A stretch of 64,000 bases of DNA from Cyanophora paradoxa CCMP329 (Eukaryota; Plantae; Glaucophyta). Position numbers and translations under genes: made by a program. A model generated the notes under the pieces. It searched no databases. It was not told the origin of the DNA and was given only the letters and a program-made list of their open reading frames with translations. The stretch spans positions 186,001 to 250,000 of the forward strand of contig QPMI01000533.1 in the NCBI GenBank assembly GCA_004431415.1. Direction: 5' to 3'. Of the stretch, positions 43,618-64,000 are shown piece by piece. Position 1 is the stretch's first letter. Every line of letters begins with the position of its first letter.

Positions 43618-44063
43618 TATCGGTATCATGATCATGATCTATGATCTATCGTTCTCGACGAGCGGCCCCGCCGGCCCGGGGGCTGGAGCCGCGGCGGAGC
43701 GGGTCGCCGCGTCGAGTCGGCGGACTCCGAGAGCCGCCGAGGCTCGAACCGGCCCCCTGTAGCCTGCAGGCTGCAGCCTGCAGCCCGGCCAGTGTTGTAT
43801 ACGCATGGACCTCACGACCGGGCAATTCCGCTTCGCTCCATTGCCCCCGATTCCATGCGTTTCCAGTGTATACCTCCACCCCATCTTCAGTTAATTCACC
43901 TTGTACGTCTACGAGCCCCTAATTCCCAGGTCTACCAGACTCGGGCCGGAGTCTTAACAAAGAAATATCTAACGACTATTCAGGACAGAGCTGACAACTA
44001 GAATAGGCGAAGAGGAGCGCTGCCCCCCATGCGCGCGGTCTGTAGAGCAACGTAGCAGAATAG

Positions 44064-44244
44064 GCTAGACGATATTAATGTGTGCATTGAGCTAACTGAG
44101 GAAACGCGTTCAGCATTAACTATAGGCGTGAGGGCGAGTACAGAGAAGCTAAACGAGGAAAGAGCGTCAAGGTAAAGCTAGACGAAATAAATGTGTGCAT
44201 CGAGCTAGCTGAGGAAACGCGTTCAGCAAAATCTATAGGCGTGA
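44064..44244. repeat. Two ~68-bp direct repeats in the putative terminal region
   Basis: gctagacga...aatgtgtgcat.gagcta.ctgaggaaacgcgttcagca....ctataggcgtga occurs at 44064-44131 and 44177-44244. Confidence 0.9.
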
Positions 44245-44445
44245 CTTCGGTAAGAAACGGGCCCCTTTTAGCGGTCTGGTGCGGCCTCTGGAGATGTGTC
44301 GATGACTTTACCTTTCTTTTGTTTTAATTGTTTTAATTGTTTTAATTCGGAGGGTCAAGTTCCTAAGAAAACTTTGCGGACGCCGTGACGTGACGCTGTG
44401 ACGTGGCGAGAAAACGGCGAGATACGTGACACACAAAAGAATGGT

Positions 44446-44762: not shown

Positions 44763-47700
44763 ATGGACAGGAACAATCTGAGAGCGGAAATTCGGAGCCT
44801 TGCGCAGGAGCTACACACTCTTAGGTACATTAACGGAACATATTTGAACACACTGTTGCGGCTAGCTGACCCACAGAGGGGAACCCACACACAAAATCTT
44901 CGAGCAAATCTAGCGACATTGCTCAGACTTAGGCAGACGAACCGGCCGCAGCGCCCTTTGTACGAGGCATGGATAACAAGACATTTTGATAGCGAACGCA
45001 ATGCTCGAATTGCAACCACGCGAGAGTTTGATGATATTGTTGAGTATGGGATCTCGAATTTGTTTCGCGAGAGTGGTCGAGGCGATACCGTGTTAAATTA
45101 CGCCCACTATGCATATCCGGGGTTGCTATTTACCAAGGACGTTTTGGATATTGAACCGACTCCAATGCCTGAACGGGTGAAAGAGATCACGATCGTGTTT
45201 CTGATAGAGTTGCGAGTGCCAGAGAGAATTGGATCAAGCGTCCTAATTCGCTTTCATTTCGATAACTTTCGCATGTATCGCACTCAACTTGCAACAATCG
45301 AGGAGGGCACAATGCAGTCGCTGTTGTCAAACCTGGCTGAAAAGATGGAACAATGGATGCTAGCACAGCAGCCATATGAAGACAATGACCTATGGCCAGT
45401 AGTGAAAATAGAGGTGCTAATTGCAGAGAATGCTGCAGGTGCACTGGGAAACGTTCCAAAGCTCCCATTCAATGGCAAAGCCCTGACCATGAATAAGATC
45501 TACTGTCCGATTTCACCAGAGGACAACTGCGTGTTAGAGTGCTTTGAATATGTAAAGCTGAACCCTGGACGAATAAGCCTAGATCGTATTTACAAGCAGC
45601 TTCAGAGATTGGACTATGGAGGAATTAGAACACAGCTAGGACTGCAGCGAGGAATGATATCAGTTGATGTGCCGACAATAAATACGCTGAGCGCTTTTTA
45701 CAGGATAGACACCAGCGTTTTTGAGTTTTCGCAAGGAAAGTTCAAGCCGCTTTTTGCAACCGATCTAGGATTTGAAAAACGTGCTCACCTTTGCATTGTC
45801 GATGCGCACTGCTACCTGATTAAGGATAAAAGAACGACTGAAATGGAGAAGTGCAACGCCTGCGGGAAAATGCAGTTGGAACTGGAAAGGCACAAGGTAA
45901 CCTGTCAGTTTTGTACTAGGTGTCGTTGCGCCTACAATCCAGTTGAAGATCACACAAACAAATGCGTTGCGGCCATCAGAAACAAAGGTGTCATTGGAAG
46001 AAAGATCACCCCTTGCGAGAAGGAGAGTGAATTTACGGCAATGGAGAGCGTGATAGGGGCGGACTTTGAAACATTTCCTTGCGATGGCAAAACCCACGTT
46101 CCTTATGCTGTTGACACAGACATAATTTGCAAGGGCGAAATTGTAGGAACCAAGATGTTCTACGGTCCTGAAACATTAAATCAATTTATGCAATGGCTGG
46201 ATGATTGGGCAGAGAAGACCACAGTAGTATTTTACAACGGTGCGGGTTTTGATCTGATATTCATATACCGATGGCTGATAGAGAATCGGCCAGACAGCCA
46301 GGTGAACGTCATGCGCTCCTCGGGCAAGATTAAGAGTATGAAGTGGAAGACCTCAGCTGGAGGAGAGTTGACAAGTTTTGACCCATGCCTACACATTCAA
46401 GGCTCACTAAAGCAAGCCGGAAAGGACTACGGCTGCACGACAATCAAAGGAGACTTCGACCATCGCAAGATCAAGACGTGGGCAGATGTTGAGACACACA
46501 AGGAGGAATGGGGTGAATATCTTAGAGCCGACGTGCGATCAATGACGGAGCTATACATGAAATATTCGAGAACGTGTTTTGAGCTATTCGGAATTAATGT
46601 GAATTCTAAGCAGACACTTACAGCTTCATCAATGGCATTTCAGATTTACCGGCAGCTAATGAAGACAGAGCTGCACCTTCCGAAGTACAGCGAAGATCAG
46701 GTTTTTCGCAGGGCTATTTACGGAGGTCGCTGTTTACCATTCAAACGCAAGTTTGTCTCGAAAGGGTCTGATGACTATCTGGTAGATCTGGATGTGGTCT
46801 CTCTTTATCCGACCGCAATGTACTTTAACCAGTTTCCGACAGGTAAATTTAAGGTGATCAATGAACCGGAGGCTTTGGAGCGTTTTCGAAAGTTCATGCT
46901 AAGTCGAAAAATGGAGCAACTGTTCATTGCGAGCATAAGTGCGAAAATTCCTCAGGACCTTGTGCTTTCTCCGCTTCCACGCCACGAGTCGAATTTAGGC
47001 TGGTCGAACCTGAAACCGATCGAGCGAGAGATGTATACATCGGTTGATATCTACAGGGCAATAGCACTTGGGGTTGAAATAACAGAGGTGCACGAGGTGT
47101 ATTTATTTGAAGGCAAGGAGCGAATGTTTAAAGATTACATCGAGAAGTTGTACTGTATGAAGGCACGTTCAAGGAAGGGCACAGCTCAGTACGCAACAGC
47201 AAAGATTCAACTAAATGGTCTTTACGGCAAATTTGCCCAGCGGCCAGTGATTGAAGCCACGGAGCTAGTTTCTAATTACCGCCGATTTAAAGAGCTCCAG
47301 CGGACGTCTACGATTACAGACATCGAAATTGAGAGTGAAACACGGATGTATGTGACATACGAAGTACCAGAGAGCAAACGTGATGCTTGTGTGTCAAAGC
47401 CCTGCTTCATTGAAGCATTTATTCTCTCCTACAGTCGCGAGATCATGGACAGGTTCCTAGTAAAGATGAACTCTTACAAAGACATCGAAGCCATGCCGTT
47501 TTACACGGACACCGACTCTCTTGTTGTGCACAGGAAATTTGCAGAGCTTCTCTTAGAATGTATGAAGCAGCCATACTCTTTGGAGGGGATGTCAGAAGAG
47601 GAGGCGAACAGGGCGATATGCGAGAACGAGCTGGGAAAACTAGATTACGACATCCAAGGGCAAATTGTGGAGGCATACTTTGTTGGCCCAAAGGTTTACT

Positions 47701-48089
47701 GCTGTCGTTTTGTGAAGGCGAATGGGGAGTCTGACGTGCATGTGCGTGCGAAAGGAATTCCGAAGAGCTGGATAGAAGAGAACTGGCTTTCGAGTGATCC
47801 GGAGATGAGGAAGGGGCACCTCGAGTCACGGGTCGCTTTGGAAGCGTTCAAGCAGATGCTCGAGAGCCGGTATCAGCCGGAGTGCACAATAGAGTCTAAA
47901 CTAGCTCGAGTCTTCAAACCGAATGGAAAGCAACGCGAGGCAGGGATTGGCTTTAGTTCAATCATCCAGATTCCTTTCAGCAGAGTATTAAATAAGACGG
48001 AATACACAAAGCGAAAGATAATTTCGGATGACTATTACAGCACGGTTCCCCATGAGTACATCAGCCCGAATTCAGGAGGCATACTATGA
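44763..48089 (+). CDS. polB: Protein-primed family B DNA polymerase (pPolB)
   Basis: ExoI ADFET, ExoII YNGAGFD, ExoIII YLRAD, YGGRC, PolA DVVSLYPTAM, PolB KIQLNGLYGKF, PolC YTDTDSL, KVY. 1108 aa, uninterrupted. Confidence 0.97.
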   Translation: MDRNNLRAEIRSLAQELHTLRYINGTYLNTLLRLADPQRGTHTQNLRANLATLLRLRQTNRPQRPLYEAWITRHFDSERNARIATTREFDDIVEYGISNLFRESGRGDTVLNYAHYAYPGLLFTKDVLDIEPTPMPERVKEITIVFLIELRVPERIGSSVLIRFHFDNFRMYRTQLATIEEGTMQSLLSNLAEKMEQWMLAQQPYEDNDLWPVVKIEVLIAENAAGALGNVPKLPFNGKALTMNKIYCPISPEDNCVLECFEYVKLNPGRISLDRIYKQLQRLDYGGIRTQLGLQRGMISVDVPTINTLSAFYRIDTSVFEFSQGKFKPLFATDLGFEKRAHLCIVDAHCYLIKDKRTTEMEKCNACGKMQLELERHKVTCQFCTRCRCAYNPVEDHTNKCVAAIRNKGVIGRKITPCEKESEFTAMESVIGADFETFPCDGKTHVPYAVDTDIICKGEIVGTKMFYGPETLNQFMQWLDDWAEKTTVVFYNGAGFDLIFIYRWLIENRPDSQVNVMRSSGKIKSMKWKTSAGGELTSFDPCLHIQGSLKQAGKDYGCTTIKGDFDHRKIKTWADVETHKEEWGEYLRADVRSMTELYMKYSRTCFELFGINVNSKQTLTASSMAFQIYRQLMKTELHLPKYSEDQVFRRAIYGGRCLPFKRKFVSKGSDDYLVDLDVVSLYPTAMYFNQFPTGKFKVINEPEALERFRKFMLSRKMEQLFIASISAKIPQDLVLSPLPRHESNLGWSNLKPIEREMYTSVDIYRAIALGVEITEVHEVYLFEGKERMFKDYIEKLYCMKARSRKGTAQYATAKIQLNGLYGKFAQRPVIEATELVSNYRRFKELQRTSTITDIEIESETRMYVTYEVPESKRDACVSKPCFIEAFILSYSREIMDRFLVKMNSYKDIEAMPFYTDTDSLVVHRKFAELLLECMKQPYSLEGMSEEEANRAICENELGKLDYDIQGQIVEAYFVGPKVYCCRFVKANGESDVHVRAKGIPKSWIEENWLSSDPEMRKGHLESRVALEAFKQMLESRYQPECTIESKLARVFKPNGKQREAGIGFSSIIQIPFSRVLNKTEYTKRKIISDDYYSTVPHEYISPNSGGIL

Positions 48090-49188
48090 TCCAGAAACAG
48101 GGCTTCAGTCGGCCACACGTATTGCCAAGAAGTTGAAAATACCAGTTGCCAGGGTAAGAGCAGTGCTGGAGAAATTATCGACAGCGCAAAGATTTGCGAG
48201 GCCGCAAAAAGAGAAACCATTCACAAGTATAACATACGACAAAGCAGAGAAATACTACGAGGTGGACCTAATCGACGTGACTCCGTACGCCAGAACAAAC
48301 CGCGGCATTCACTTTATAATGAACGCAGTGGACGTAGTGACTCGGAAAGCCTACAGCATTCCAATGAAGAACAAGAGCGAAGGTACACTCCTTTCAACAC
48401 TACGGAAACTCATAGAGAGTTTTCCAGCCAAGCCGGATATTATTCAGACAGATCAGGAGTTTAAAGCTTCAGCTGCTAGTCTATTAGAAGCTGAGGGAAT
48501 TAAGCACAATGCTGTGGAAGCGCATCGACCCCAAGCAAATGGAAAAGTAGAGCGATTCAATGGAACTTTGAAGCGAATTATTGCACGGTATATGGAGGCA
48601 TATGACACGGATAGGTACATCGACAAGCTGCCCGCATTTGTGCGCAATTATAATTCGTCAGAGCATAGGTCGATTGGTACATCGCCAAACGCTGCAGCAG
48701 AGAATCCGAAGGAGACAATTGCACGCAACGATTATCAGCGAGAGGTCTACGAGCAGCAACACTACCTGAAGGAGGTCGAATTTAAAGTAGGAGACCTAGT
48801 TCGAGTTAAGCTAACCAGGAGAACCTTCGATAAATCGACAAAGCCAACCTTCTCGAAAGAAGTATTTCGAATTGAGTCGATTGGGGGTTTTGGACCCCTT
48901 CTTAGATTTAAACTCGCTGGATTGGATACACCAGTGACCTACCAGCAAATTTTGAAGGTCCCATTAGATTCAGAGGAGCGGCGTGCTGGAGGAGCAGCAC
49001 AGAGAGCAATGCAACGACGAAAGAAGGATCTAAATCTGATGCGAGAGAACTTAGATCGAGCGGACATAGAAAAAAATAAGAAGCTCATTCGCCTTCAAAA
49101 GCAACTTGCGACAGCTGGAACTGTCAAGTTAAATCCTGGTGGAATATTAGAGAGAACAAAGACCAGAAGGGCAGTCAAAGAGCTATAA
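48052..49188 (+). CDS. Retroviral-like (RVE, DDE) integrase, Polinton type
   Basis: YYDP N-terminus, EVDLID / QTDQEF / VERFNGTLK catalytic triad, YNSSEHRSIG and FKVGDLVRV...FSKEVFRI. Overlaps the pPolB stop. Alternative ATG at 48028. Confidence 0.96.
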   Translation: MSTSARIQEAYYDPETGLQSATRIAKKLKIPVARVRAVLEKLSTAQRFARPQKEKPFTSITYDKAEKYYEVDLIDVTPYARTNRGIHFIMNAVDVVTRKAYSIPMKNKSEGTLLSTLRKLIESFPAKPDIIQTDQEFKASAASLLEAEGIKHNAVEAHRPQANGKVERFNGTLKRIIARYMEAYDTDRYIDKLPAFVRNYNSSEHRSIGTSPNAAAENPKETIARNDYQREVYEQQHYLKEVEFKVGDLVRVKLTRRTFDKSTKPTFSKEVFRIESIGGFGPLLRFKLAGLDTPVTYQQILKVPLDSEERRAGGAAQRAMQRRKKDLNLMRENLDRADIEKNKKLIRLQKQLATAGTVKLNPGGILERTKTRRAVKEL

Positions 49189-51111: not shown

Positions 51112-51858
51112 TTAAGATAAGATTTTAAAACGCCTCTTTTTAGAGACAACAGGCGAAGAATCTTCGGTCTTACGTTCTTCTTCATTCTTAAGCCATTTAG
51201 AGAAGCGAAAACTCTTATCTTCAACGGCTTTGTCAACGTACCAGGCCGTATCGTACTTGGTCCCATCCAGGACTAGGCACTGATAATCATGCGCCCAAGT
51301 CTCGAACAAGGCGATGAACTTATCTTTTGGGAGATGACTGAACTCTCTATAGATCGCCTCGAGCTCGGTATGATTAGAATAACTAAAGAAAAAGCAGTAA
51401 TCGCTGTTTGATCTTATAGATTGACTAAGAGCTGTTAGCTTTTGCGTCATAAGAATCGTACTTATATTAAAATGGCGGCCCTGCGTAAAAAGTCGATTTA
51501 CAGCCTTGCTGTTTCGCAGATCAACAGTTTCAGAGGCGGCAACTAGATCGTCCAATACAAGCAATATCTGCGGTGCTTTCTCTTTGTTTTCGATCAACTT
51601 TCGCTGTGAATCAATGATTTCTGCAACTATGGCGGGTTGAAAATCGTCGTAAAGCTCTTTAGTTATTGCAGAGTATTCACCATTGAATTTGGTGGCAGTG
51701 AAAACGACGACTCGGTTGATCTTTGGATACAGCAGTCGAAGCAGATGCTTTGTGCAATAGAACGATTTGCCGCTATTAGACTTTGAAATAAACAGGGCCT
51801 TAAAGGGGACCCTCATATCTCGCGGCTGGAACTTTGCAAGTTCTTGAGACTCATCCAT
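51112..51858 (-). CDS. A32/FtsK-like genome packaging ATPase
   Basis: Walker A-like SKSNSGKS, Walker B ILLVLDD, arginine-finger GRHFNIS, MTQ and IRSN motifs. Confidence 0.93.
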   Translation of the reverse strand: MDESQELAKFQPRDMRVPFKALFISKSNSGKSFYCTKHLLRLLYPKINRVVVFTATKFNGEYSAITKELYDDFQPAIVAEIIDSQRKLIENKEKAPQILLVLDDLVAASETVDLRNSKAVNRLFTQGRHFNISTILMTQKLTALSQSIRSNSDYCFFFSYSNHTELEAIYREFSHLPKDKFIALFETWAHDYQCLVLDGTKYDTAWYVDKAVEDKSFRFSKWLKNEEERKTEDSSPVVSKKRRFKILS

Positions 51859-51909
51859 CAAAAAATTAACTACTGAAACTCGCAGGCGAACACAACCGCG
51901 ACACTTCGA

Positions 51910-53298
51910 CTAGAGGTTCACCTTACGAAGACCCGCAGCATCAACAATTAGGACAGTGTGCAGGAGAGCGCGAATTTGGACGTAAATCTTGTTGTTTGCA
52001 TCGTAAGCAGCAGGGTTCATGATATTCAGGAAGCAGCTACTCGAGTTCGTCAGATCCACGAAACCAGTTTGAGCTGCGTTTCGGATCGATTTATCTCCAC
52101 TAATGCAAAATGGCAATCCAGTTAGCACGTACCTATTCATAGGAGCGTCGAGATTCGAGCACTTGAACACATCAGCAATGAGCTCAGCACCTTGAAGGAG
52201 TGGCACAGGCTCGTTAGAATAAAGTCGCTGGCCATTCAATTCGCAGGAAATAGTTATGTCACGAGCATTGGCCTCAGTTTTAAGGACACTGTGTTTTCCA
52301 TCAGTTTGGTTCATATTTGTCTGCTTGCGAATGCTAACAAATAGGCCATAGCAGAGTCCACTGATCTGTGACAGATTAATCCGGGTGGGTGCACCTGCAC
52401 CTGCATAGGTAATTGAATCAGCATCAACCCAACCAACTTCAGTTGCAGGAATGGCAATCCCCGAAGATTTGACTTTCTCAATCACCTGGGCAAAAGTGGC
52501 CTCATCAACGTTGATGCAGTGAGCTATAATCTTTGGATTCGATAGCTCGGGATTGGCAGGAGTGACAGTGAGGACATTGGGGGTTATATTCTGGCCAATG
52601 TTTGCAGGGGATGCAGCGGCAGCGCCTACGCTCCCGAGTCCATCATCTTTAGAGGCATCACCGTTTGCGGCATATTCTGCTACAAACCTACCACCATAGC
52701 TGGTCTCAACGAAGCCCTGGGCACGGTCACGGAACCAAACCTCCACAGACACCTCGCCCGATAGCGCACCAATTGGAAGCACTGAGCCCTCCCAGGGGCA
52801 GGGGATCTTTACACTGAAAATACCTCCAGCGCGATTGCTCCCCTGAGGTGGTGTTCCATGGAGCCAGCCACCGGATCGGTACTTCTTTTTAAGCTGAGCA
52901 TCATCATTGAAAATCAGAGCGCTGTGAACAAGCCAGTCCTCAGGGACGATGTAGCTGTAGGAAGCATATTTGATTTCAATTCGCTTTACAAGAGCACCAA
53001 CAGACCGCAGATACCCAGTGCGAACCAGGTCAGTGTCACCAGTAAATGCAGTCAGCTCTGGAAGGGTAAACTGGAGTTCGAGCCCCTGAAGGAAATTGTA
53101 GCGGGGCAGGAAATAAGTAACCCTCTTTCCGAAGCAGTCTCCATAGTCATTGCTTGGGTTGACAACAACACGCACAGGCTTTGTTTGGCTGGTTAGACCT
53201 AACATAAGCTCATTGTTCATGAAGAAGTCCTTTGCTTCCTGAGGTGTCGTGAGGAGCTCTTTGAGGCCGAGCCGCTGCAAATTTTGAGTAACATCCAT
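51910..53298 (-). CDS. Major capsid protein (double jelly-roll, putative)
   Basis: 462 aa, beta-rich, located between ATPase and penton. Motifs LELQFTLPEL, LVKRIEIK...EDWL, ELNGQRL and LPFCI...TGFVDL resemble NCLDV/PLV MCP strands. Confidence 0.85.
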   Translation of the reverse strand: MDVTQNLQRLGLKELLTTPQEAKDFFMNNELMLGLTSQTKPVRVVVNPSNDYGDCFGKRVTYFLPRYNFLQGLELQFTLPELTAFTGDTDLVRTGYLRSVGALVKRIEIKYASYSYIVPEDWLVHSALIFNDDAQLKKKYRSGGWLHGTPPQGSNRAGGIFSVKIPCPWEGSVLPIGALSGEVSVEVWFRDRAQGFVETSYGGRFVAEYAANGDASKDDGLGSVGAAAASPANIGQNITPNVLTVTPANPELSNPKIIAHCINVDEATFAQVIEKVKSSGIAIPATEVGWVDADSITYAGAGAPTRINLSQISGLCYGLFVSIRKQTNMNQTDGKHSVLKTEANARDITISCELNGQRLYSNEPVPLLQGAELIADVFKCSNLDAPMNRYVLTGLPFCISGDKSIRNAAQTGFVDLTNSSSCFLNIMNPAAYDANNKIYVQIRALLHTVLIVDAAGLRKVNL

Positions 53299-53368: not shown

Positions 53369-54325
53369 TCAGTTTGACGAATTGATCCAAGGATATGTTT
53401 TTGACCTTTTCTGGAGCTGAAGTTTTGCAAGTTCGTAGACAACATCACCATTGGGTTCGTCAGGACCATAACGAATTTCGAGAATAAATGACACAGGAGC
53501 TCCATTTAAATCAGCGATTCGCTGCATAAAATCGTAAATCTCAATAGTCACAGAGTAGAGGTCCAGCTTTGAATAAACATACTTATACAAAGGAGTTGCT
53601 TCAGTTGAATCATAGTAGGCTGTCTCTCCTGGACGGAGGACACTTGGAATGCTAATTTTGGCAAAGAAGCCAGGAATTGAAGTATTGGGCATACTGACAA
53701 GGTCACCAATTTCAGGAATGCGTAGGAGCACATGATCATCGGGAGTGACATCGGGTTCATAAGAGCCCTCTATATATTGAACATCGACAGTTAAATCCTT
53801 AGACCGAATCGGTAGAATTGATCTCAGCCCTAGAAGCTTTGCAGTTCGCTGAGCCCTTGCAACAGCCTGGTAGTTTCTGACTTCCCGCCCACCCTGGTTC
53901 GGTGCCAAAATCAGAGCAATAAAGAACTCGAAGTTAGCTGTGAACCCTATTAATTTAACCGCTGAATTATACGTGCACGTGATACCAGTCCCCGTCAACC
54001 TTTCGTTTATCTTTGTCACAAGCGAGGTGACGTCGTAATTTCCAGGTGGAATTGCAATGTTATTCCACGCTCCAAAGCCTGGCTGAGGTGGGTCGGGTCC
54101 CTCATTTGCAGGATCATATTTGCACCAATATATATAGGTGTCAAACACTAAATCCTCTGCTGGATCGAGTACATCAATTGTGCTCATTGTGTTGGGGATC
54201 TCAGCTGATACCAAGCGCACGGCTTTCACATCCTGATAAACTTTAGGCAGTCTTACTTTAAATTTCGAGGTGGATGTCAGCTCCTCCGCTTGGTGACTTG
54301 CAATGCAGACGTAGTCCGTCGGCAT
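53369..54325 (-). CDS. Minor capsid (penton-like) protein 1
   Basis: FKVRLP..YQDVKAVRLVSAEIPNT, IPPGNY and C-terminal VTIEIYD...DLNGAPVSFILEI, typical of the single-jelly-roll mCP family. Confidence 0.85.
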   Translation of the reverse strand: MPTDYVCIASHQAEELTSTSKFKVRLPKVYQDVKAVRLVSAEIPNTMSTIDVLDPAEDLVFDTYIYWCKYDPANEGPDPPQPGFGAWNNIAIPPGNYDVTSLVTKINERLTGTGITCTYNSAVKLIGFTANFEFFIALILAPNQGGREVRNYQAVARAQRTAKLLGLRSILPIRSKDLTVDVQYIEGSYEPDVTPDDHVLLRIPEIGDLVSMPNTSIPGFFAKISIPSVLRPGETAYYDSTEATPLYKYVYSKLDLYSVTIEIYDFMQRIADLNGAPVSFILEIRYGPDEPNGDVVYELAKLQLQKRSKTYPWINSSN

Positions 54326-54352
54326 CTTTTTTATATCAGTTAGAGAATAAAA

Positions 54353-55248
54353 ATGCGGCTTACCTTTGACAGTAGAGACAGAAGGCCAATCGATTCAGAG
54401 GCAAACTTTGTGCTCGAAATCAATGAACCTATAATCAATCCAGTTGCTGTTCGACTTACCCAGTGTGAGTTCGCAAATAGCCTTTACACGAGCATTAAAG
54501 ATGAGTATCTTTCGATCACCTTTCCTTATATTGGAACAGAAAATGTGGAGGTTTTTGAGCCAGGCATAATTACGACTGCAAATTATGGAGAGACAGATCT
54601 TTTCAACTTCGGCCTCTCGTTTAATATTAGGCTAGAAGGGATCTCAATCGCATATTTCAAATTGTTTCGGGACCCAGAGACACTGAAGATGTCTGCCTAT
54701 TGCAACCGTTCCTGCACACTGACCTGCCAGTTCAAAGCTCTATCGAACCTGCTGGGGCTGAACCGAAATGAGTCCCTCCAGCTGTCTCCTATCGTGCTTG
54801 AAGGGGGCAAAGACCAGCAACTGCAGCTGAGCGGTATCTCGAGGTTGCTGGCATTCCAGTTACACCTGCTCACCCTGAGTATGGCATTGATTTCACCGGA
54901 AGAATGCGGAGTGAGCCACTTGGTTATGCTGTCGAATTTCCAAAGATAATCGACATGAACAGCGACCAGTACCTCTTCCTTGTCTGCGAAGAGCTACGGC
55001 CATTTGCTTCAAAGCTTCGCCGTGGGGCCAAAACAATGTGCAACTACGGGCTTGCTCGAATCCAGATGAGCCAGGATGTTGGCAAGTTCGTTTATATAAA
55101 TCAGGAAAATGAAGAATGGATCCCCATCGAAGAGCGTCTTGTGCTGACTTCCTTGCGACTGCACATTGTAGACAGAGATGGTGATGATGTATCACTGAAC
55201 GGCCTGCCTTGGTCTGGGGAACTGCAGTTCATTACTAGGGAAAGCTGA
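54353..55248 (+). pseudogene. Minor capsid (penton-like) protein 2, split by a 1-nt frameshift (mutation, slippage or sequencing error)
   Basis: N-half FDSRDR...VAVRLTQCEFANSLY and C-half LRLHIVDRDGDDVSLNGLPWSGELQF are in different frames. One extra G in the G5 run at 54803-54807 restores a 298-aa ORF. Confidence 0.75.
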
Positions 55249-57148: not shown

Positions 57149-60100
57149 ATGTCCTACATCTTGAAGAAGCCAGTGCCACTTCGTAAAGCTCCAGATCTCG
57201 TGGATAATCGGCATATAAATATTCGCGTATTTGGGAGTACTCTGATTGATTACAATGCTGACAAAGATATACACCAGACCGCGTATAATCGCCCAGCTGC
57301 GTTAATTCTGCGCAACTCACATGTTGGCGCCCCGAACATTGCACAGAGATTTTGTCTGGGTCCGGCTGAAAACTATGTTGCTGAAATAATTGGATCCAGG
57401 GCGTTGCCGCGGCACCTGCGCATCGCCTCCTCAGGCACAGTTTCCAGGTATGATTCTGGTAGATTAATATTTAGGCTTCAAAACGATCGAGGGATTCACA
57501 TATCAGCTCTACGTCTAATTGATGAATCCAATGATGTCACAAACAAAACTGCGGCCCAAATTACAGGGAGAATTCTCCTTGGTGAAGACGCAGGAATATC
57601 AGTGCTAGCATCACAAATTCAGCCGTTTCCCTGGGATTTACTATATACTGCTGCAAGAGAGACAAATATTTTGTACGGTTTCGATGTTAATCAAATCGAT
57701 ACCGAGCCAGCCACCAGGTTAGATATTCCTGGATGCACCTTTGGCTCTATCCTGATTGAGGCTGACAGGCACCTGCTTCCAGCGCTGCATGACAGCTACG
57801 ATCTAGGGCTCCGCACCAGGCAGTGGCGAAATATTCATGGAACAAATATTTATCAGGATGGTAAGAAGGTAAGCACTGAAGAGGAGGTGATCAACATTTT
57901 CAACTACTACTTTGGACCTATTGTCCCTATACCACCTATACCACCTCTTCCAGGGCTACCAAAGCCGCCAACCCCGGACGGACCAGGTCGAGAGCGAGTT
58001 GCTGATGAAACAGTTCCTTTCGGGCAAAATATTATTTCGTGGGAGGCTGTCAGGAATCGCCCAGTGATTGAACCCTATAAGCATCCACATGAAGAATACC
58101 TGCCGCCTGATATTGAAGTTTTCCCACTCGAAATGTATACAGAGCCTGAAGAGCAGTTACTTCCTGATGGCTTAGATGTTCAAGAACTTGAGTATGATCA
58201 GCCTGTGATTCCGCATGAGCAGCTGCTTCCAGATGGCTTTGATCCTATTTTCTTCCCCTTGGAGTTCACAGTGGACTGGGAATCTATTAACAACAAACCT
58301 GAGCATTTTCCACCGGAAGATCACAGACATAACTGGGATGAAATCGATAATAAACCGTTGCAATTTCCACCAGAAGATCATAGACACGACTGGGATGATA
58401 TCGATAATAAACCGCTTGAATTTCCACCAGAGGATCATAGACACGACTGGGGTGACCTTGATAATGTTCCGCTTGAATTTCCACCGGAAGATCACAGACA
58501 CATTTGGAGCGAAATAGATGAACAGCCCGAGTTCGCAAAGTCTGAGCTTCCTGTCACGCTGGCTGTCTCTCTCTACAAATCAATTAACACAGCTGAAAGG
58601 CTATATTTGAATGACCACTATGTCCACAGGCAGGGAATTCGTGCCAACACTGACATGTCAGGCTCTTTGTTTGTGAGGATTCCCCGTGGAATGGAGATTG
58701 TTGCTGCAGGTGGAAATATTGGTTTGCAGGACACGTTCCCAAGTATTTATGTCACAAACTACTACGCCTCTGACATCGAAATGACAACTGTTCTACCCCC
58801 TTTGCCTTCACTGCCGTTAGATCCTCTCGCTCATGCTGATTTTCATTCTGCAATCCAGATTAACGTAACAGATGTTAGCGATTTAGATTCATCAAGACCG
58901 AAATTGGTTTTTAGCCGAGAACGTCTTTTACCAGATGCTTTAATTGGCAACCGAGACGATTATAAAAAATGCGAAATAGCATGGATAAAAACGAACTATA
59001 ATGGTGGAGTTGGGGAGGGTGTTTTAGAGATTAATCAGAGGGCAGCAGCTAAAAACATTCACAACGAAAATATTTCAAGAGTTGTCACCGAAGATTACGT
59101 TACGGCTGTAATACTTGTTAATTTCGTTACTCTTGCTATGCTTGTAAATTATGTAACAAAACCGGAACTTGCAGATGAATTAAAAACATATCTACCACTT
59201 GTTGGTGGGACGATCACCGGAAACCTAAAAGTGAATGGAACTCTTACGATTGGCTCAGGTAATGAAAATATATTACAAGAGCAGATACTACAAAGTTTCT
59301 ATGAAATCACAGCAAATGATGACCCAGCATTAAGGATTCCAAATTGTCTTTTTGCTTGGAAAGCATCAGGTGTTCCCGGTTCATCAGCCAATGGTGTATT
59401 TCTATATAATAGATCACCAAACAACTCAATATTTCCATCACTTAGAACAAACTCATTTAATGCCCTTTACACTTTAAATCCGGAGATAAATAACCAAATA
59501 AGTATTACAGCAGCCACAGGAAGATTTTCTAACGCTTTTCAGAGTTGGAATAATAAAACTGTGGATTGGTCAGCAGGTTTTACATATTTTTACATTGGTA
59601 AATATTATTCAGCAAGCGTTTCTGATACTCATTTAACCTTCGAACGAACAGGAGTAAGAAAAACCGATTATGGTAATCTATCGGCTACATCAGTTGGAAT
59701 GGTTTCGTTTAGTATAAATTATGCTCAGCAAACAAAACCATCATTTACCGTTCCATCTTTAATAAATAATTGGTATTACATAGATCATACAATTACTTCG
59801 GACAGCTATACAGTTGGATTAAATGGCATTGATGTTGGAACTGTAACTAACACAAACAATTATTTACCTGATTCTATTGTTAATAGTTTCGGAATTTTAT
59901 CAGTTTATGGGAGTATGTGTGAATTGCTTGTTTTCAACAGAGCATTAACCATAGCAGAAAAACAACAAGTGAGGTATTATATTCAGCAGATGTATGGATT
60001 TCCTATTACTCAACCTCTCACAATTTACAGAGGATTAAAGATAACATCACCAGAAACAATAATCGATAATCTCAGAGTAACAACTAATGCAACTCTACCA

Positions 60101-62941
60101 CATCATCCTACATCGAATGTTGTTTTAAATTGGTTAGCAGACCAAACGCACACAAAAGCAGATATTACGGATTTCGCCCATACTCACACAAAAGATCAAA
60201 TAACAGATTTCGCCCATACTCACACAAAAGATCAAATAACAGATTTCGCACACACTCACACAAAAGATCAAATAACAGATTTTGCCCATACTCATTTATG
60301 GGAGCATATCACAAATCCTCCATTAACCTTTCCACCTGATTCACACACTCATGATTATTCCGAAATCACAAACTCTAACCACAAACACCCATGGAGCGAA
60401 ATAGATGAAAAACCACGTTTTGCATCAACAGGTGATTTAGTAAATGGTGACGGATTTTATGGGGTAAGTTTCTATCAGAGTGACACCATCCCTGAAAGAT
60501 TACAATTAAGTGAATACTATTTGCACCGAAAAGGAATTGAAGCAGGCACCACAATGGATGGCGAATTGTATATTAAACAACCAACAAGAACAACATTAGT
60601 AGCAGCAGGTGGTAATGCATTAATAGATACCAAACCGGGTATTTATCTAACAAGTTACTATAATGAAGACATTCCAGTTACAGGAGGTTTACCACCGCTA
60701 CCATCTGATCCAGCAACTTATGATGACAAAGACGCCATTTTACAAGTGAATGTAACAGATGTAAGCGCTACTGATGGTTCACGTCCAAAAATTATATTTA
60801 GTCGCTCGAAATTCAATTACGCACCGCTTGCGGGACAACCCACAGATGATCACGGGAAATGTGAGATGGCGTGGATTAAAACGACATCAGGTGGCGCCTT
60901 AGAAGTCAATCAGAGAATGGCGGCGAAAAACTTACACAATACAACCCTTTCGGGTGTCGTTACAGATGATTACCTAACCAATAAAGGATATCTTACAACC
61001 GCAGATTTAAGCAGTTATGTAACAGAAACTGAATTAACGACGGCGTTAAATCCTTACGCAACAGATGCAGAATTAACAACGGCTCTTGCGAATTATTTAC
61101 CTCTTACAGGTGGAACCGTCACCGGAACCGTTAACGCTACCACTTTACAAATTGGCGGAACCACAATACCGAAAGGTTACGAATTCGACCAATTAGATAC
61201 TGTTTCGACAGATAGAAGCGCTAATAATTGGACTGTAACATGGGGAGCGAGAACAGGGCAAACAGGGTGTTTTACTACACCAGCAAATGATGAAGATTGC
61301 AGCGGTTGTTTTATGCGTTGGATAGTTCCGACAGGTATGAAATCATTTTATATTCAACATTTACCGTGGAGTAGTGGGAGATATTTTGATATCTACGGTC
61401 AAACTCTAAATGGGTTTCAGCATTTCTTAAAACGAGTTAATAATTATCAAGCAATAGCAACTACCGGAATTCAAGATGGAACACATCCGGCTATTCTCTT
61501 TATTTCAATAAATTGTGAGTTTTACAAATATATTTATGTTCAAGGTCGAAAAGGTCGCATTCATCTTACGGGGGTTTTCGGTTGGAGTAGACAAAGAGCA
61601 ACGGATAATGAGGTTGGTATGATCTCTTGGGATAATATTTTTAGTAAACCATCATTTTATTCAGCCGCAGACCTTCCACAAACAGCGACATGGACAACGA
61701 ATACATGGTTATCATCAACGGACAGTGTTCCGCGAATTTGGTTTGGAAATGGTAATACGACATATATTCGAGGTTATGGAAATAGTGATGGTGTTTCGAT
61801 TGAATTTAGAGACTCAGCAGATGGAGCAATATTAAAGTCTTATAACAATGGTAACTTTTGGGTGAAAAACACTATTACAGCACCTACTATTAATGCTACA
61901 ACAAATCTTCAAATAAATGGTAATGATGTCCCAAAGTTTCACGCAGCAGATAAAACAGTAGGAGGTATTGAATTTAATAGATGTTCTTATGGCGATTGGG
62001 AGTGGGCATGGAGTTCAGCATGGGATCCATATTATAATTATGGTTCTTACGTTTATAGTAAAAACTCTGATGACCAAACTTCTACCGCTTGGATAGACTT
62101 CGATATTCCAGAAGGATATCACAAAGGAACAGCATTTTTAACTTATTTACCTTGGGTTAGCTCACGACTTTTTGAAATTTGGGGAGTGAATCGACAAGGA
62201 AATGAAGTTTTTATTACATCAGTGAATAGTTATCAACCATACGCCACATCGCCTGATGGTAACCACAGTGGTTTAAATAATGTTCCTATACATCTTGGTA
62301 ATCGATTTTTGACTATTCGTATTAGACCAAAGATTGGAAGAGTTCACATTATGGGTATAAGTTACATGAAAATTTGGGTAGGAAATAGTTATGGTGGTCA
62401 CACCGGCTATATTCATTGGAATAATGTTTATAGTAAACCAAATATATTAACAGGAGCATTGGATGTTTGGTTTAACTCTAATGATGGATATAATCGTATT
62501 TATTTCGCGAATAATAACACCACGTATATTAAAGGAAGGGGGGATTATCCAATTAGATTTCGAAATGAATTAGATTCTGATATTTGTTGGATCGATCATA
62601 ACGGGCGGATGTGGATAAACAATTATTTAACACAAGGAAGTGACAGAAGATACAAAACAGACATTAAAAAGATAACCGGCGCTCTTTCAGCAATAGAGAA
62701 ATTAGAAGGAGTGAGTTTTAAACGAATCGGAAGTGAAAAAGACGGAACGAAATTAGGATTAATTGCACAAGATGTTCAACATGTAATACCAGAAGTCGTT
62801 AATGTGAAAAAAGATGATGGCTACTTATCTCTCGAATACACGGGTTTAATTCCAGTTCTCATAGAAGCCGTTAAAGAATTGTCTAAGAAATGCAAGAGTC
62901 TACAAGATCAAATAGATCAATGGCGCAGCCAGGCTGCTTAA
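57149..62941 (+). CDS. 1930-aa virion fibre/receptor-binding protein with phage tail-fibre-like repeats, LamG-like domain and C-terminal peptidase S74 chaperone
   Basis: HxHxWxxIxxKP repeats, YLPLxGGTxTG motifs (x2), MCELLVFNRALT.AE (LamG/ConA-like), and SDRRYKTDI...GLIAQDV...LIEAVKEL (S74). Confidence 0.88.
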   Translation: MSYILKKPVPLRKAPDLVDNRHINIRVFGSTLIDYNADKDIHQTAYNRPAALILRNSHVGAPNIAQRFCLGPAENYVAEIIGSRALPRHLRIASSGTVSRYDSGRLIFRLQNDRGIHISALRLIDESNDVTNKTAAQITGRILLGEDAGISVLASQIQPFPWDLLYTAARETNILYGFDVNQIDTEPATRLDIPGCTFGSILIEADRHLLPALHDSYDLGLRTRQWRNIHGTNIYQDGKKVSTEEEVINIFNYYFGPIVPIPPIPPLPGLPKPPTPDGPGRERVADETVPFGQNIISWEAVRNRPVIEPYKHPHEEYLPPDIEVFPLEMYTEPEEQLLPDGLDVQELEYDQPVIPHEQLLPDGFDPIFFPLEFTVDWESINNKPEHFPPEDHRHNWDEIDNKPLQFPPEDHRHDWDDIDNKPLEFPPEDHRHDWGDLDNVPLEFPPEDHRHIWSEIDEQPEFAKSELPVTLAVSLYKSINTAERLYLNDHYVHRQGIRANTDMSGSLFVRIPRGMEIVAAGGNIGLQDTFPSIYVTNYYASDIEMTTVLPPLPSLPLDPLAHADFHSAIQINVTDVSDLDSSRPKLVFSRERLLPDALIGNRDDYKKCEIAWIKTNYNGGVGEGVLEINQRAAAKNIHNENISRVVTEDYVTAVILVNFVTLAMLVNYVTKPELADELKTYLPLVGGTITGNLKVNGTLTIGSGNENILQEQILQSFYEITANDDPALRIPNCLFAWKASGVPGSSANGVFLYNRSPNNSIFPSLRTNSFNALYTLNPEINNQISITAATGRFSNAFQSWNNKTVDWSAGFTYFYIGKYYSASVSDTHLTFERTGVRKTDYGNLSATSVGMVSFSINYAQQTKPSFTVPSLINNWYYIDHTITSDSYTVGLNGIDVGTVTNTNNYLPDSIVNSFGILSVYGSMCELLVFNRALTIAEKQQVRYYIQQMYGFPITQPLTIYRGLKITSPETIIDNLRVTTNATLPHHPTSNVVLNWLADQTHTKADITDFAHTHTKDQITDFAHTHTKDQITDFAHTHTKDQITDFAHTHLWEHITNPPLTFPPDSHTHDYSEITNSNHKHPWSEIDEKPRFASTGDLVNGDGFYGVSFYQSDTIPERLQLSEYYLHRKGIEAGTTMDGELYIKQPTRTTLVAAGGNALIDTKPGIYLTSYYNEDIPVTGGLPPLPSDPATYDDKDAILQVNVTDVSATDGSRPKIIFSRSKFNYAPLAGQPTDDHGKCEMAWIKTTSGGALEVNQRMAAKNLHNTTLSGVVTDDYLTNKGYLTTADLSSYVTETELTTALNPYATDAELTTALANYLPLTGGTVTGTVNATTLQIGGTTIPKGYEFDQLDTVSTDRSANNWTVTWGARTGQTGCFTTPANDEDCSGCFMRWIVPTGMKSFYIQHLPWSSGRYFDIYGQTLNGFQHFLKRVNNYQAIATTGIQDGTHPAILFISINCEFYKYIYVQGRKGRIHLTGVFGWSRQRATDNEVGMISWDNIFSKPSFYSAADLPQTATWTTNTWLSSTDSVPRIWFGNGNTTYIRGYGNSDGVSIEFRDSADGAILKSYNNGNFWVKNTITAPTINATTNLQINGNDVPKFHAADKTVGGIEFNRCSYGDWEWAWSSAWDPYYNYGSYVYSKNSDDQTSTAWIDFDIPEGYHKGTAFLTYLPWVSSRLFEIWGVNRQGNEVFITSVNSYQPYATSPDGNHSGLNNVPIHLGNRFLTIRIRPKIGRVHIMGISYMKIWVGNSYGGHTGYIHWNNVYSKPNILTGALDVWFNSNDGYNRIYFANNNTTYIKGRGDYPIRFRNELDSDICWIDHNGRMWINNYLTQGSDRRYKTDIKKITGALSAIEKLEGVSFKRIGSEKDGTKLGLIAQDVQHVIPEVVNVKKDDGYLSLEYTGLIPVLIEAVKELSKKCKSLQDQIDQWRSQAA
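58273..58528 (+). repeat. 57-bp (19-aa) coding tandem repeat, DWxxIDNKPLEFPPEDHRH x~4.5
   Basis: Read directly from the DNA and the translation. Confidence 0.95.
60146..60296 (+). repeat. 36-bp (12-aa) coding tandem repeat, HTHTKDQITDFA x~4
   Basis: Read directly from the DNA and the translation. Confidence 0.95.
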
Positions 62942-63320: not shown

Positions 63321-64000
63321 ATGACCGAGTACAATCGGGTCCAGCTACCAATCTACTCGCTGGGCTCCCCAGCCATCCATATGAGACAGCACGAAGTAAG
63401 CGATGCCGTTGCTGGATTTGAGTCCACTGAGCGTCCAAACTCAACTAATGCATTTGATCAGCGATCAGTTATTCGGTGTAAAGAATTGCGTGCAGATAAA
63501 AACTCTGGAGTTGTCAAAACGACTCGATTACTAGTTACAAATGCCAATTTCTCACAGCCCATAACAGGGGGAGTTGATTCATATAGTGTTGACCTTCGAA
63601 GCATAAACTATGATCAAAACACTGCTGCCCTCACTGTGCGCTCCGGAGGAGCAGCTATTACCGGAGCCTGCCGAGTAAGTGGAGGGCTATCATCATCAAT
63701 TTCCATCAATGATGTACCGGACTTTTCAGTAGAAAATGTCGAAAATCGTAAACGAGTTCGAATGTACGTACCTTGCTGTGACCTCCCCTATGCACAAGCA
63801 CTAGTAGAAGTTGAGATAACAATAGCTAATTCAAGTACACCAAATGGTCTTGATGGTGAGAGGTTGCTTTCAAACAGAGAAATCCCCAAGGCACTTCAAT
63901 CGCTCTGTCAAGATCAAAATGATCAAATAGGTCATGTTTACACGTTCTTTGTACAGGGTCTAGGACACGCAGGACGGGGATACGTAGTTCGTAATATCAA
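63321..64000 (+). CDS. Hypothetical viral protein, truncated by window end (absent from the ORF track)
   Basis: ATG at 63321 (CTATTAAATG) and an open frame to the end: MTEYNRVQLPIYSLGSP...ALTVRSGGAAITGACRVSG..., possibly structural. Confidence 0.75.
   Translation, partial: MTEYNRVQLPIYSLGSPAIHMRQHEVSDAVAGFESTERPNSTNAFDQRSVIRCKELRADKNSGVVKTTRLLVTNANFSQPITGGVDSYSVDLRSINYDQNTAALTVRSGGAAITGACRVSGGLSSSISINDVPDFSVENVENRKRVRMYVPCCDLPYAQALVEVEITIANSSTPNGLDGERLLSNREIPKALQSLCQDQNDQIGHVYTFFVQGLGHAGRGYVVRNI

What the first reader, a model, noticed from the sequence alone, without database searches (positions are those of the whole stretch)
57149..62941. Giant mosaic fibre built from duplicated modules with a phage-type self-cleaving chaperone
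Seen: the order is N-region, 19-aa His repeats, module A1 (~58504-59250), LamG-like domain (~59330-60000), 12-aa His repeats, module A2 (~60391-61160), modules B1 (~61170-61850) and B2 (~61930-62620), then S74. A1/A2 share WSEIDE, VAAGGN, LPPLPS, NVTDVS..SRPK..FSR, KCE.AWIKT and YLPL.GGT.TG. B1/B2 share LPW.S.R.F.I.G, GR.H..G, I.W.N..SKP and RI.F.N.NTTYI.G. Known: HxH repeats and S74 chaperones build trimeric phage fibres. Inferred: a multivalent receptor-binding fibre on a small eukaryotic virus; A and B may be undescribed glycan-binding domains.
Basis: partly seen in the sequence, partly recalled or inferred. Interest (0 to 1): 0.8.

Follow-up and report, generated by a model that had tools for sequence, protein, structure and literature searches.

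The report
Mix-and-match fibre of an algal provirus
This long gene of a 22-kb virus integrated in an alga's genome likely encodes the fibre by which the particle grips a cell, a protein type already known in such viruses, but sister copies in the same genome carry many different combinations of its modules behind a front end that stays matched to the capsid type, so the family likely varies its binding tips by swapping cassettes.

Summary
Observation confirmed: a 1930-aa ORF with 19- and 12-aa His repeats, duplicated modules A (53% identical) and B (32%), a LamG-like domain and a C-terminal S74 chaperone. It lies in a 22,111-bp integrated Polinton-like virus (pPolB, rve integrase, A32 ATPase, two pentons, TIRs, 6-bp target duplication) of a glaucophyte alga. 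Long S74/LamG/tail-repeat fibres are already described as ubiquitous in PLVs (PMC12220804), so the headline reading is known. New here: (1) B is an unnamed jelly-roll domain family (195 clusters; also in giant-virus collagen proteins and phage-type fibres) with a CBM32/6/35-like fold, tied with Eph/MAM, so glycan binding is unproven; A is unassigned. (2) 70 complete sister genes show 7 layouts and about 29 module combinations, with 0-4 B modules and S74 or H-lectin-like tips. The window gene is a patchwork: best DNA match 91-100% to a different sister in each segment, switching at conserved joints. The N domain tracks capsid class in 62 of 62 copies while distal modules cross classes. The scan noted replicase mosaicism in this genome before, not the fibre.

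The parts
57149..62941 (+). Fibre gene, 1930 aa
57149..57913 (+). N domain (aa1-255), likely capsid/penton anchor; type tracks capsid class
   Evidence: function inferred
57914..58273 (+). Pro/acidic low-complexity linker (aa256-375); first exchange joint at aa~295-305 (W..V...P motif)
58274..58504 (+). Four 19-aa His repeats (phage tail-fibre type)
   Evidence: PHROG tail families E to 1.6e-12; PDB 9d93 tail collar fibre gp4 E 2.7e-6
58505..59242 (+). Module A1 (aa453-650) plus stalk ending YLPL.GGT (to aa698); fold unassigned
59312..59998 (+). LamG/ConA-like domain (aa722-950); optional in sister genes
60146..60391 (+). 12-aa His repeats (PTR-like), copy number 0-22 among sister ORFs
60392..61141 (+). 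Module A2 (aa1082-1275) plus stalk (to aa1331)
61169..61651 (+). Module B1: predicted jelly-roll beta-sandwich, galactose-binding-domain-like fold
61652..61918 (+). Beta-rich tail after B1 (RI.F.N.NTTYI.G), likely shaft segment
   Evidence: role inferred
61946..62440 (+). Module B2 (second allele class of the same domain)
62441..62638 (+). Beta-rich tail before the chaperone
   Evidence: role inferred
62639..62941 (+). Peptidase S74 intramolecular chaperone; Ser1831/Lys1836; C-terminal heptads
43787..43792 (.). 6-bp target-site duplication GGCCAG (partner at L009:2904-2909)
43793..44288 (.). Left terminal inverted repeat, 5'-TGTTG (98.8% to L009 2408-2923); element ends at L009:2903, 22,111 bp in all
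44763..48089 (+). Protein-primed DNA polymerase B
   Evidence: PF03175 E 1.7e-59
48028..49188 (+). Retroviral-like integrase
   Evidence: PF13683 E 2e-8, PF00665 E 2.6e-7
51112..51861 (-). A32-like packaging ATPase
   Evidence: PF04665 E 1.8e-9
51910..53298 (-). Putative major capsid protein (462 aa)
   Evidence: position, size, 92 scored copies in G000; no family or PDB match
53369..54325 (-). Penton paralogue 1
   Evidence: profile of 13 paralogues hits PBCV-1 penton P1, 6ncl E 1.5e-4
54353..55248 (+). Penton paralogue 2, read in two frames in this copy, one ORF in L133
55640..57274 (-). Patatin-like lipase, head-to-head with the fibre gene
   Evidence: PF01734 E 7.8e-25

Best explanation
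The gene encodes what is likely the trimeric vertex fibre of an integrated Polinton-like virus, and sister copies show that its modules are exchanged between proviruses, likely by homologous recombination at short conserved joints. Shown: element anatomy, module order, S74 membership, mosaicism, N-domain/capsid concordance. Inferred steps: (1) three chains fold from the C-terminal S74 domain, which then cleaves itself off at Ser1831 using Lys1836; (2) the N domain docks on a penton, which is why it never crosses capsid classes; (3) His repeats, stalks and probably module A form the shaft (HxH triads likely bind metal, recalled from phage fibres); (4) LamG and the B jelly-rolls are side-mounted binding domains, most likely for glycans, giving 3 x 3 sites per fibre; (5) recombination among the >=92 related copies at W..I..KP, KNIHNE, YLPL.GG and QGSDRR joints adds, removes and swaps A, L, B and tip cassettes, varying receptor specificity as phage tail fibres do.
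For: Element: pPolB, rve, A32, patatin, penton profile to PBCV-1 P1, 516-bp TIR 98.8%, 6-bp TSD. Fibre parts. Ser-x4-Lys spacing equals endoNF S911/K916 and MyRF S587/K592 (PMC8326128 passages). A related PLV fibre-like protein (Ltf) and lipase were found in purified Gezel-14T virions (10.1101/2022.07.28.501842 passages). B: AF2 pLDDT 77.7, pTM 0.76, ten strands; Foldseek top hits CBM32/CBM6, E 2e-4 to 6e-4, TM 0.48-0.58; W1361, W1407, D1414, R1429, G1469, R1470 conserved in 87-100% of 166 outside domains; outside carriers also bear S74, collagen, PAN, ricin, F5/8 or phage fibre repeats (22 of 50 scanned have a Pfam hit). Repertoire: 70 complete genes among 98 stretches examined, 7 layouts, 39 S74-ended and 31 with other tips. 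Window gene DNA identity: N-A1 91-99% to L011, A2 95% to L031, stalk+B1 97-100% to L033 (whose N is 60%, near the 51-60% background), tail+B2 93-95% to L044, L <=68% to all 8 compared. HSP ends pile up at aa~295 (26), 400-439 (9), 620-659 (17), 1280-1319 (15), 1440-1519 (9), 1820-1839 (9). N1 in 49 of 49 class-I capsid copies, N2 in 13 of 13 class-II; S74, T1, a2, a3, b1, b2 occur at >=70% in both classes.
Against: No virion, trimer, cleavage or binding data exist for this element. B's fold does not single out a sugar binder: VIA Z 9.4-10.7 ties reelin, Eph ligand-binding, MAM, gingipain adhesin and CBM35/6. LamG is under Pfam's cut-off. N is the part nearest the capsid block, so linkage alone could give some concordance (though 26 class-I copies switch allele at aa~295, straight after N); a1 and a5 are also class-exclusive. 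Break-point counts are not independent events. AU tests did not reject monophyly of N2-family genes on B trees (p 0.31, 0.25; 17 genes; the identical window/L033 pair was left free) and the S74 tree kept them together. Many copies are frameshifted, so assembly errors in repeats, including some chimeras, cannot be excluded. The putative MCP has no family or PDB match.
Confidence: 0.75

Rival explanations
1. Same fibre, but B (and L) bind proteins or are structural, and the shuffling is neutral gene conversion among many integrated copies with no effect on specificity.
Against: Seven B allele classes at <70% identity are kept in open frames of 1750-2270 aa in many copies; B co-occurs with ricin, PAN, F5/8 and B-lectin domains outside; exposed-type Trp/Arg/His positions are conserved.
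Confidence: 0.3
2. The fibre binds a helper giant virus (or competes for its receptor) rather than the alga, so the repertoire tracks giant-virus surfaces.
For: B occurs in two giant-virus-like IMG/VR contigs (L107: TM + collagen + B + PAN beside XRN, SWIB, RNase III genes; L119: B + ricin beside a cap methyltransferase; gene names read by eye) and in similar proteins of 128-292-kb contigs.
Against: No giant virus of this host was seen; B is also in phage-type fibres and a secreted bacterial-type protein with 11 copies; published PLV work infers independent host entry.
Confidence: 0.12
3. The mosaic pattern is largely an assembly artefact from collapsing and mis-joining ~90% identical repeats.
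For: Frequent frameshifts; no short-read contig spans the gene.
Against: The same layouts recur on separate contigs (12, 7, 4, 4, 3, 3 copies); exchanges join capsid classes whose N regions are only ~60% identical in DNA; an identical 325-343-bp contig across the end of A1, the stalk and the start of the window-specific L is present in 3 of 3 DNA-type runs and a fourth; loose ends in those runs sit at or near module joints.
Confidence: 0.07

Closest known systems
PLV bacteriophage-like fibre proteins (Bulzu et al. 2025, PMC12220804; section 13 part 1, passages and supplement search read)
   Same: Single C-terminal PF13884 on a long modular protein with Laminin_G_3 and phage-tail repeats; proposed penton-attached trimer for host attachment; one PTR-PTR-H_lectin fibre is listed for Cyanophora paradoxa, matching the short T1 layout seen here.
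   Different: That paper inventories Pfam domains; in the parts read it does not define modules A or B, intragenic exchange joints, or N-domain/capsid linkage.
Ltf (PGVV14) of Gezel-14T (10.1101/2022.07.28.501842, passages)
   Same: Longest ORF of a PLV, phage-fibre-like repeats, found in virions together with a lipase.
   Different: gp36-like repeats; 'S74' does not occur in the text; tyrosine-recombinase element, helper-dependent.
Phage tail fibres/spikes with S74 chaperone (endoNF, gp37-type 6f45) and mosaic fibre genes
   Same: Ser-Lys dyad spacing, C-terminal coiled coil, HxH repeats; cassette exchange at conserved joints (mosaicism of phage fibres is recalled, not from a call).
   Different: Icosahedral eukaryotic virus; exchange pool is dozens of proviruses inside one host genome.
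CBM32/CBM6/CBM35 (galactose-binding domain-like jelly roll)
   Same: Predicted fold of B (TM 0.48-0.58; Z ~10, rmsd ~3 A).
   Different: 7-16% identity, no Pfam/NCBIfam/PHROG match on B itself; equally close to Eph/MAM.
Domain-level mosaicism in Polisuviricotina (10.64898/2026.10.13.758929; abstract and term search)
   Same: Sub-genic recombination in the same virus group.
   Different: Concerns replicases; fiber, fibre, spike, receptor and S74 occur 0 times in its main text.

Membership tests
S74/ICD-chaperoned fibre | C-terminal PF13884 domain | tested here: met
   56.4 bits vs cut-off 22; 50 PHROG families
S74/ICD-chaperoned fibre | Ser-x4-Lys catalytic dyad | tested here: met
   S1831/K1836 vs S911/K916 and S587/K592
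S74/ICD-chaperoned fibre | Homotrimer and actual self-cleavage | not testable with these tools
   needs protein work
Phage tail repeats (PTR/HxH) | Profile match | tested here: inconclusive
   PF12789 19.3 bits vs cut-off 27 in the window (over cut-off in L011); PHROG tail E 1.6e-12, PDB 9d93 E 2.7e-6
Laminin_G_3 / ConA-like | Pfam gathering score | tested here: inconclusive
   15.3 vs 27.6 bits; ESM 0.98, 162-172 shared features; not folded
CBM32 / F5-8 type C (module B) | Sequence family match | tested here: not met
   no PF00754/PF22633 hit on B
CBM32 / F5-8 type C (module B) | Jelly-roll galactose-binding-domain-like fold | tested here: met
   (predicted model; fold shared with non-CBMs)
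CBM32 / F5-8 type C (module B) | Carbohydrate binding | not testable with these tools
   needs glycan array
Polinton-like virus / Polinton | pPolB + rve integrase + A32 ATPase | tested here: met
Polinton-like virus / Polinton | TIRs and 6-bp target duplication | tested here: met
Polinton-like virus / Polinton | Single jelly-roll penton | tested here: met
   profile hit to 6ncl P1, E 1.5e-4; two paralogues
Polinton-like virus / Polinton | Double jelly-roll major capsid protein | tested here: inconclusive
   462-aa conserved gene between ATPase and penton; no Pfam/PHROG/NCBIfam/PDB hit; not folded
Virophage (Lavidaviridae) or animal Polinton | Cysteine maturation protease (recalled criterion) | tested here: inconclusive
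   no protease family among 16 ORFs scanned; three ORFs beyond the window only partly scanned

The most novel reading that the evidence does not exclude
The alga's hundreds of integrated Polinton-like viruses form a combinatorial library of receptor-binding fibres: a capsid-locked anchor is joined, by recombination at fixed joints, to any of several A, LamG, B and tip cassettes, and B is a new lectin family shared with giant-virus surface proteins, so the library is tuned to glycans that PLVs and their giant viruses compete for.
Probability: 0.15. Interest if true: 0.75.

Novelty: new variant of a known kind. Interest (0 to 1): 0.45.

Why it matters
How Polinton-like viruses pick their host cell is open. 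This genome offers a natural panel: one anchor per capsid class and about 29 tip combinations built from small (~150-aa) B alleles that can be expressed and put on glycan arrays, making receptor specificity directly testable. B also defines an unnamed domain family (195 clusters) that would annotate many phage-type, giant-virus and PLV fibres. The fibre class itself is not new.

Tried and rejected
Anaerobic-protist host: my first reading from no LHC plus Fe-hydrogenases; dropped after phycobilisome linkers were found; the Wnt search rang in no control. Module A: AF2 monomer pLDDT 33, not used for fold search; three-copy complex job gave no verdict (score 0.00, alignment unused); no relative (weak by the tool's own note); no profile match to the N domain or to an outside S74 fibre, so my idea that A repeats the N-type beta motif is unsupported. 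B not found in 50,697 annotated phage records. N-to-A1 region search gave one weak hit on the His repeats only. MCP relatives: one eukaryote-labelled protein, none in viral contigs. Expression: no RNA holder listed; four guessed-RNA runs gave 0-3 low-depth contigs at 90-95%, none from this copy: no evidence either way. '543-aa B genes' are pieces of frameshifted fibre genes breaking at different places, not a second gene. AU tests uninformative. The wide VIA search could not be run; a second look at Foldseek's hits was. Prokaryote genomes were not scanned for B. Literature: 9 searches found no paper on intragenic fibre shuffling in PLVs or on module B; subscription papers (e.g. Bellas et al. 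2023 on protist endogenous viruses, recalled, not seen), Fig. S6 of PMC12220804 beyond its text rows, and bioRxiv supplements were not visible and may hold such data. Passages of PMC13620141, PMC13659346 and 10.1101/2025.10.09.676808 were read (S74/fibre genes as variable adhesion loci in giant viruses and PLVs); 10.64898/2026.07.28.741278 had 0 hits for fibre terms.

Full report
Observation. The ORF at 57149-62941 is open for 1930 aa. A1/A2 align at 124 of 235 identities (z 93 against 200 shuffles), B1/B2 at 64 of 202 (z 32), and the 19- and 12-aa His blocks are related (z 9.9). Pfam finds only S74 in the whole protein (aa1831-1884, E 3.6e-15). The His repeats match phage tail PHROGs (best E 1.6e-12) and a tail collar fibre in the PDB (9d93, E 2.7e-6), the C-terminus a long-tail-fibre chaperone (6f45, E 7.5e-4). 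The middle domain scores 0.98 to Laminin_G_3 clusters in the ESM Atlas but is under Pfam's cut-off.

Context. GC drops from 57-76% (one 2-kb bin at 47%) to 39-48% at ~44 kb. The low-GC block holds pPolB, an rve integrase, an A32 ATPase and a patatin lipase, two penton paralogues (profile hit to PBCV-1 P1, E 1.5e-4) and a conserved 462-aa gene in the place of the major capsid protein, for which I found no family or structure match. A 516-bp inverted match of 98.8% links window 43776-44288 to the contig's continuation; the ends read TGTTG...CAACA between copies of GGCCAG, giving a 22,111-bp integrated Polinton-like virus. The genome G000 lacks LHC matches but has phycobilisome linkers, as expected of a glaucophyte (own knowledge); earlier notes of this scan name Cyanophora paradoxa, which I did not verify further. 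At least 92 capsid-gene copies were scored of 876 candidates.

Module B. From 29 B sequences of this genome AlphaFold2 gave a ten-strand beta-sandwich, pLDDT 77.7. Foldseek's best PDB matches are CBM32 and CBM6 (E 2e-4 to 6e-4, TM 0.48-0.58), in BFVD phage receptor-binding and tail proteins. The second aligner ranks reelin, Eph, MAM, gingipain adhesin and CBM35 within 1 Z unit of each other (10.7-9.7, rmsd ~3-3.7 A): the fold is clear, the ligand class is not. A profile search of 1.84 billion representatives found 195 clusters at E<=0.001, 152 at <=1e-10. Of the best 150, 26 have an S74 match and none has A; of 50 scanned in Pfam, 22 have hits, to collagen, S74, PAN, ricin, F5/8 or phage fibre repeats, none on B itself. 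Two IMG/VR contigs carrying B look like giant viruses by their neighbouring genes, read by eye.

Module A. Seven allele classes occur in the genome (95 domains). It has no assignment from any search made (listed under tried and rejected). It follows His repeats in every layout with an N domain, also in short fibres without B, and is absent from the 2267-aa ORF L112 of a fourth capsid class that has three LamG-like and three B modules. I read it as a shaft or spacer element rather than a lectin; this is weak inference.

The repertoire. I fetched 37 stretches chosen by DNA similarity to the gene and 60 chosen by capsid-gene position. Of these 97 plus the window, 78 had a module hit and 70 ran from N to a tip. 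They fall into 7 layouts: N-A-tip (28), N-A-A-tip (3, one of them a split A), and S74-ended N-A-L-A-B-B (14), N-A-A-B-B-B (12), N-A-A-B-B-B-B (9), N-A-A-B-B (3), N-A-L-A-B-B-B (1); 34 allele strings as printed, 29 after I merged low-identity flags by hand. The S74-less tips resemble H-type lectin/gp53 C-termini (E 9e-4, 0.01, under cut-off). The sample is biased towards relatives of the window gene and is not a census: 469 B candidates exist. Segment by segment the window gene is 91-99% identical in DNA to L011 over N-A1, 91% to L033/L106 over the 12-mers, 95% to L031 over A2, 97-100% to L033 over stalk and B1, 93-95% to L044 over tail and B2, and <=68% to all eight over L, against a background of 51-60%. 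High-identity segments end repeatedly at aa~295, ~402, 639-650, 1227, 1290-1311, 1490-1505 and 1828, i.e. at the W..[IV]..[KR]P motif, His repeats, the KNIHNE and YLPL.GG motifs and QGSDRR; the 18 ends at aa146-149 reflect a short insertion. Related copies share events, so these are not independent counts. Tree-based AU tests on 17 genes did not reject family monophyly; the pairwise identities carry the case.

The anchor. N is conserved across four capsid classes with identity to the window of 89-96, 60, 33-35 and 23%, in step with capsid identity of ~97, 65, 56 and 32-35%. Among 64 copies with a located capsid gene, N1 went with class I in 49 of 49 and N2 with class II in 13 of 13; of two class-III copies one was N3 and one scored nearer N1; S74, T1, a2, a3, b1 and b2 occur in both main classes. 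Proximity to the capsid block may contribute, but 26 class-I copies change allele right after N. I infer that N docks on a penton.

Assembly. Many copies are frameshifted. For the window gene, short-read contigs cover 30, 28 and 30 of 30 bins at >=98% in three runs with no indels, and an identical contig across the A1 end, stalk and start of L is in all three and a fourth. None spans the gene, so long reads remain the decisive check.

Mechanism. Most likely a trimeric vertex fibre folded from its S74 end and released by Ser1831/Lys1836 autocleavage (spacing as endoNF S911/K916; PMC8326128 passages), anchored by N, with LamG and B as multivalent binding domains and the neighbouring lipase acting in entry, as proposed for Gezel-14T whose fibre-like protein and lipase are virion components. 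Recombination among resident copies likely resets the binding set. Trimer, cleavage, virion location, ligand and selective benefit are all inferred.

Comparison. PMC12220804 (section 13 part 1 read) calls S74 ubiquitous across PLVs, at the end of proteins up to 3.9 k aa with Laminin_G_3, collagen and tail repeats, and lists a PTR-PTR-H_lectin fibre from Cyanophora paradoxa. Sub-genic mosaicism is reported for PLV replicases, without mention of fibres. In nine searches I found no description of module B or of joint-based fibre shuffling with a capsid-locked anchor in PLVs; subscription papers and closed supplements were not visible.

Verdict. Real, well-supported fibre gene of a known class; the added value is an unnamed jelly-roll domain family and a within-genome cassette repertoire that makes PLV receptor specificity testable. 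New variant of a known kind; interest 0.45.

Noticed in passing
window 53369-55248; L120-L135: All four capsid classes carry two divergently oriented penton paralogues (~20% identical to each other); which one takes the fibre is unknown.
   Followed up: partly
window 54353-55248: Second penton gene is read in two frames in this copy but is one 295-aa ORF in L133; sequencing error or decay.
   Followed up: partly
window 63321-64000, L009:321-2031, L011:4412-8975: Two to four paralogous 270-370-aa genes follow the fibre; shared N-terminal motif, weak bactofilin and C1q hits; possibly minor spikes. Their alleles also switch independently of capsid class.
   Followed up: partly
L129:6388-9900 and L112:1997-8797: A fourth capsid class (capsid ~32% identical) has an N-homologous ORF followed, across frame breaks, by a LamG x3, B x3, S74 ORF with different shaft repeats and no A.
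   Followed up: partly
L106:4588-9899: Variant with 22 His 12-mers, two LamG-like domains, a divergent B and a gp53-like tip.
   Followed up: partly
P0001: 5217-aa protein with a signal-peptide-like start and 11 B modules, bacterial-looking by eye; source NCBI, unnamed.
   Followed up: no
L107:8987-10711; L119:4105-7341: Giant-virus-like contigs encode TM+collagen+B+PAN and B+ricin-like proteins.
   Followed up: partly
L079-L085, L088, L089, L091, L092, L094-L097, L100-L102, L105: Many class-II-like capsid copies have no recognisable fibre at the expected distance: truncated, differently ordered, or with another adhesin.
   Followed up: no
G000:C16:839316-851859: Tandem array of about seven Fe-hydrogenase-like genes at ~1.6-kb spacing.
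   Followed up: no
window 44064-44244: Internal 68-bp repeat within the TIR, 113 bp apart.
   Followed up: no
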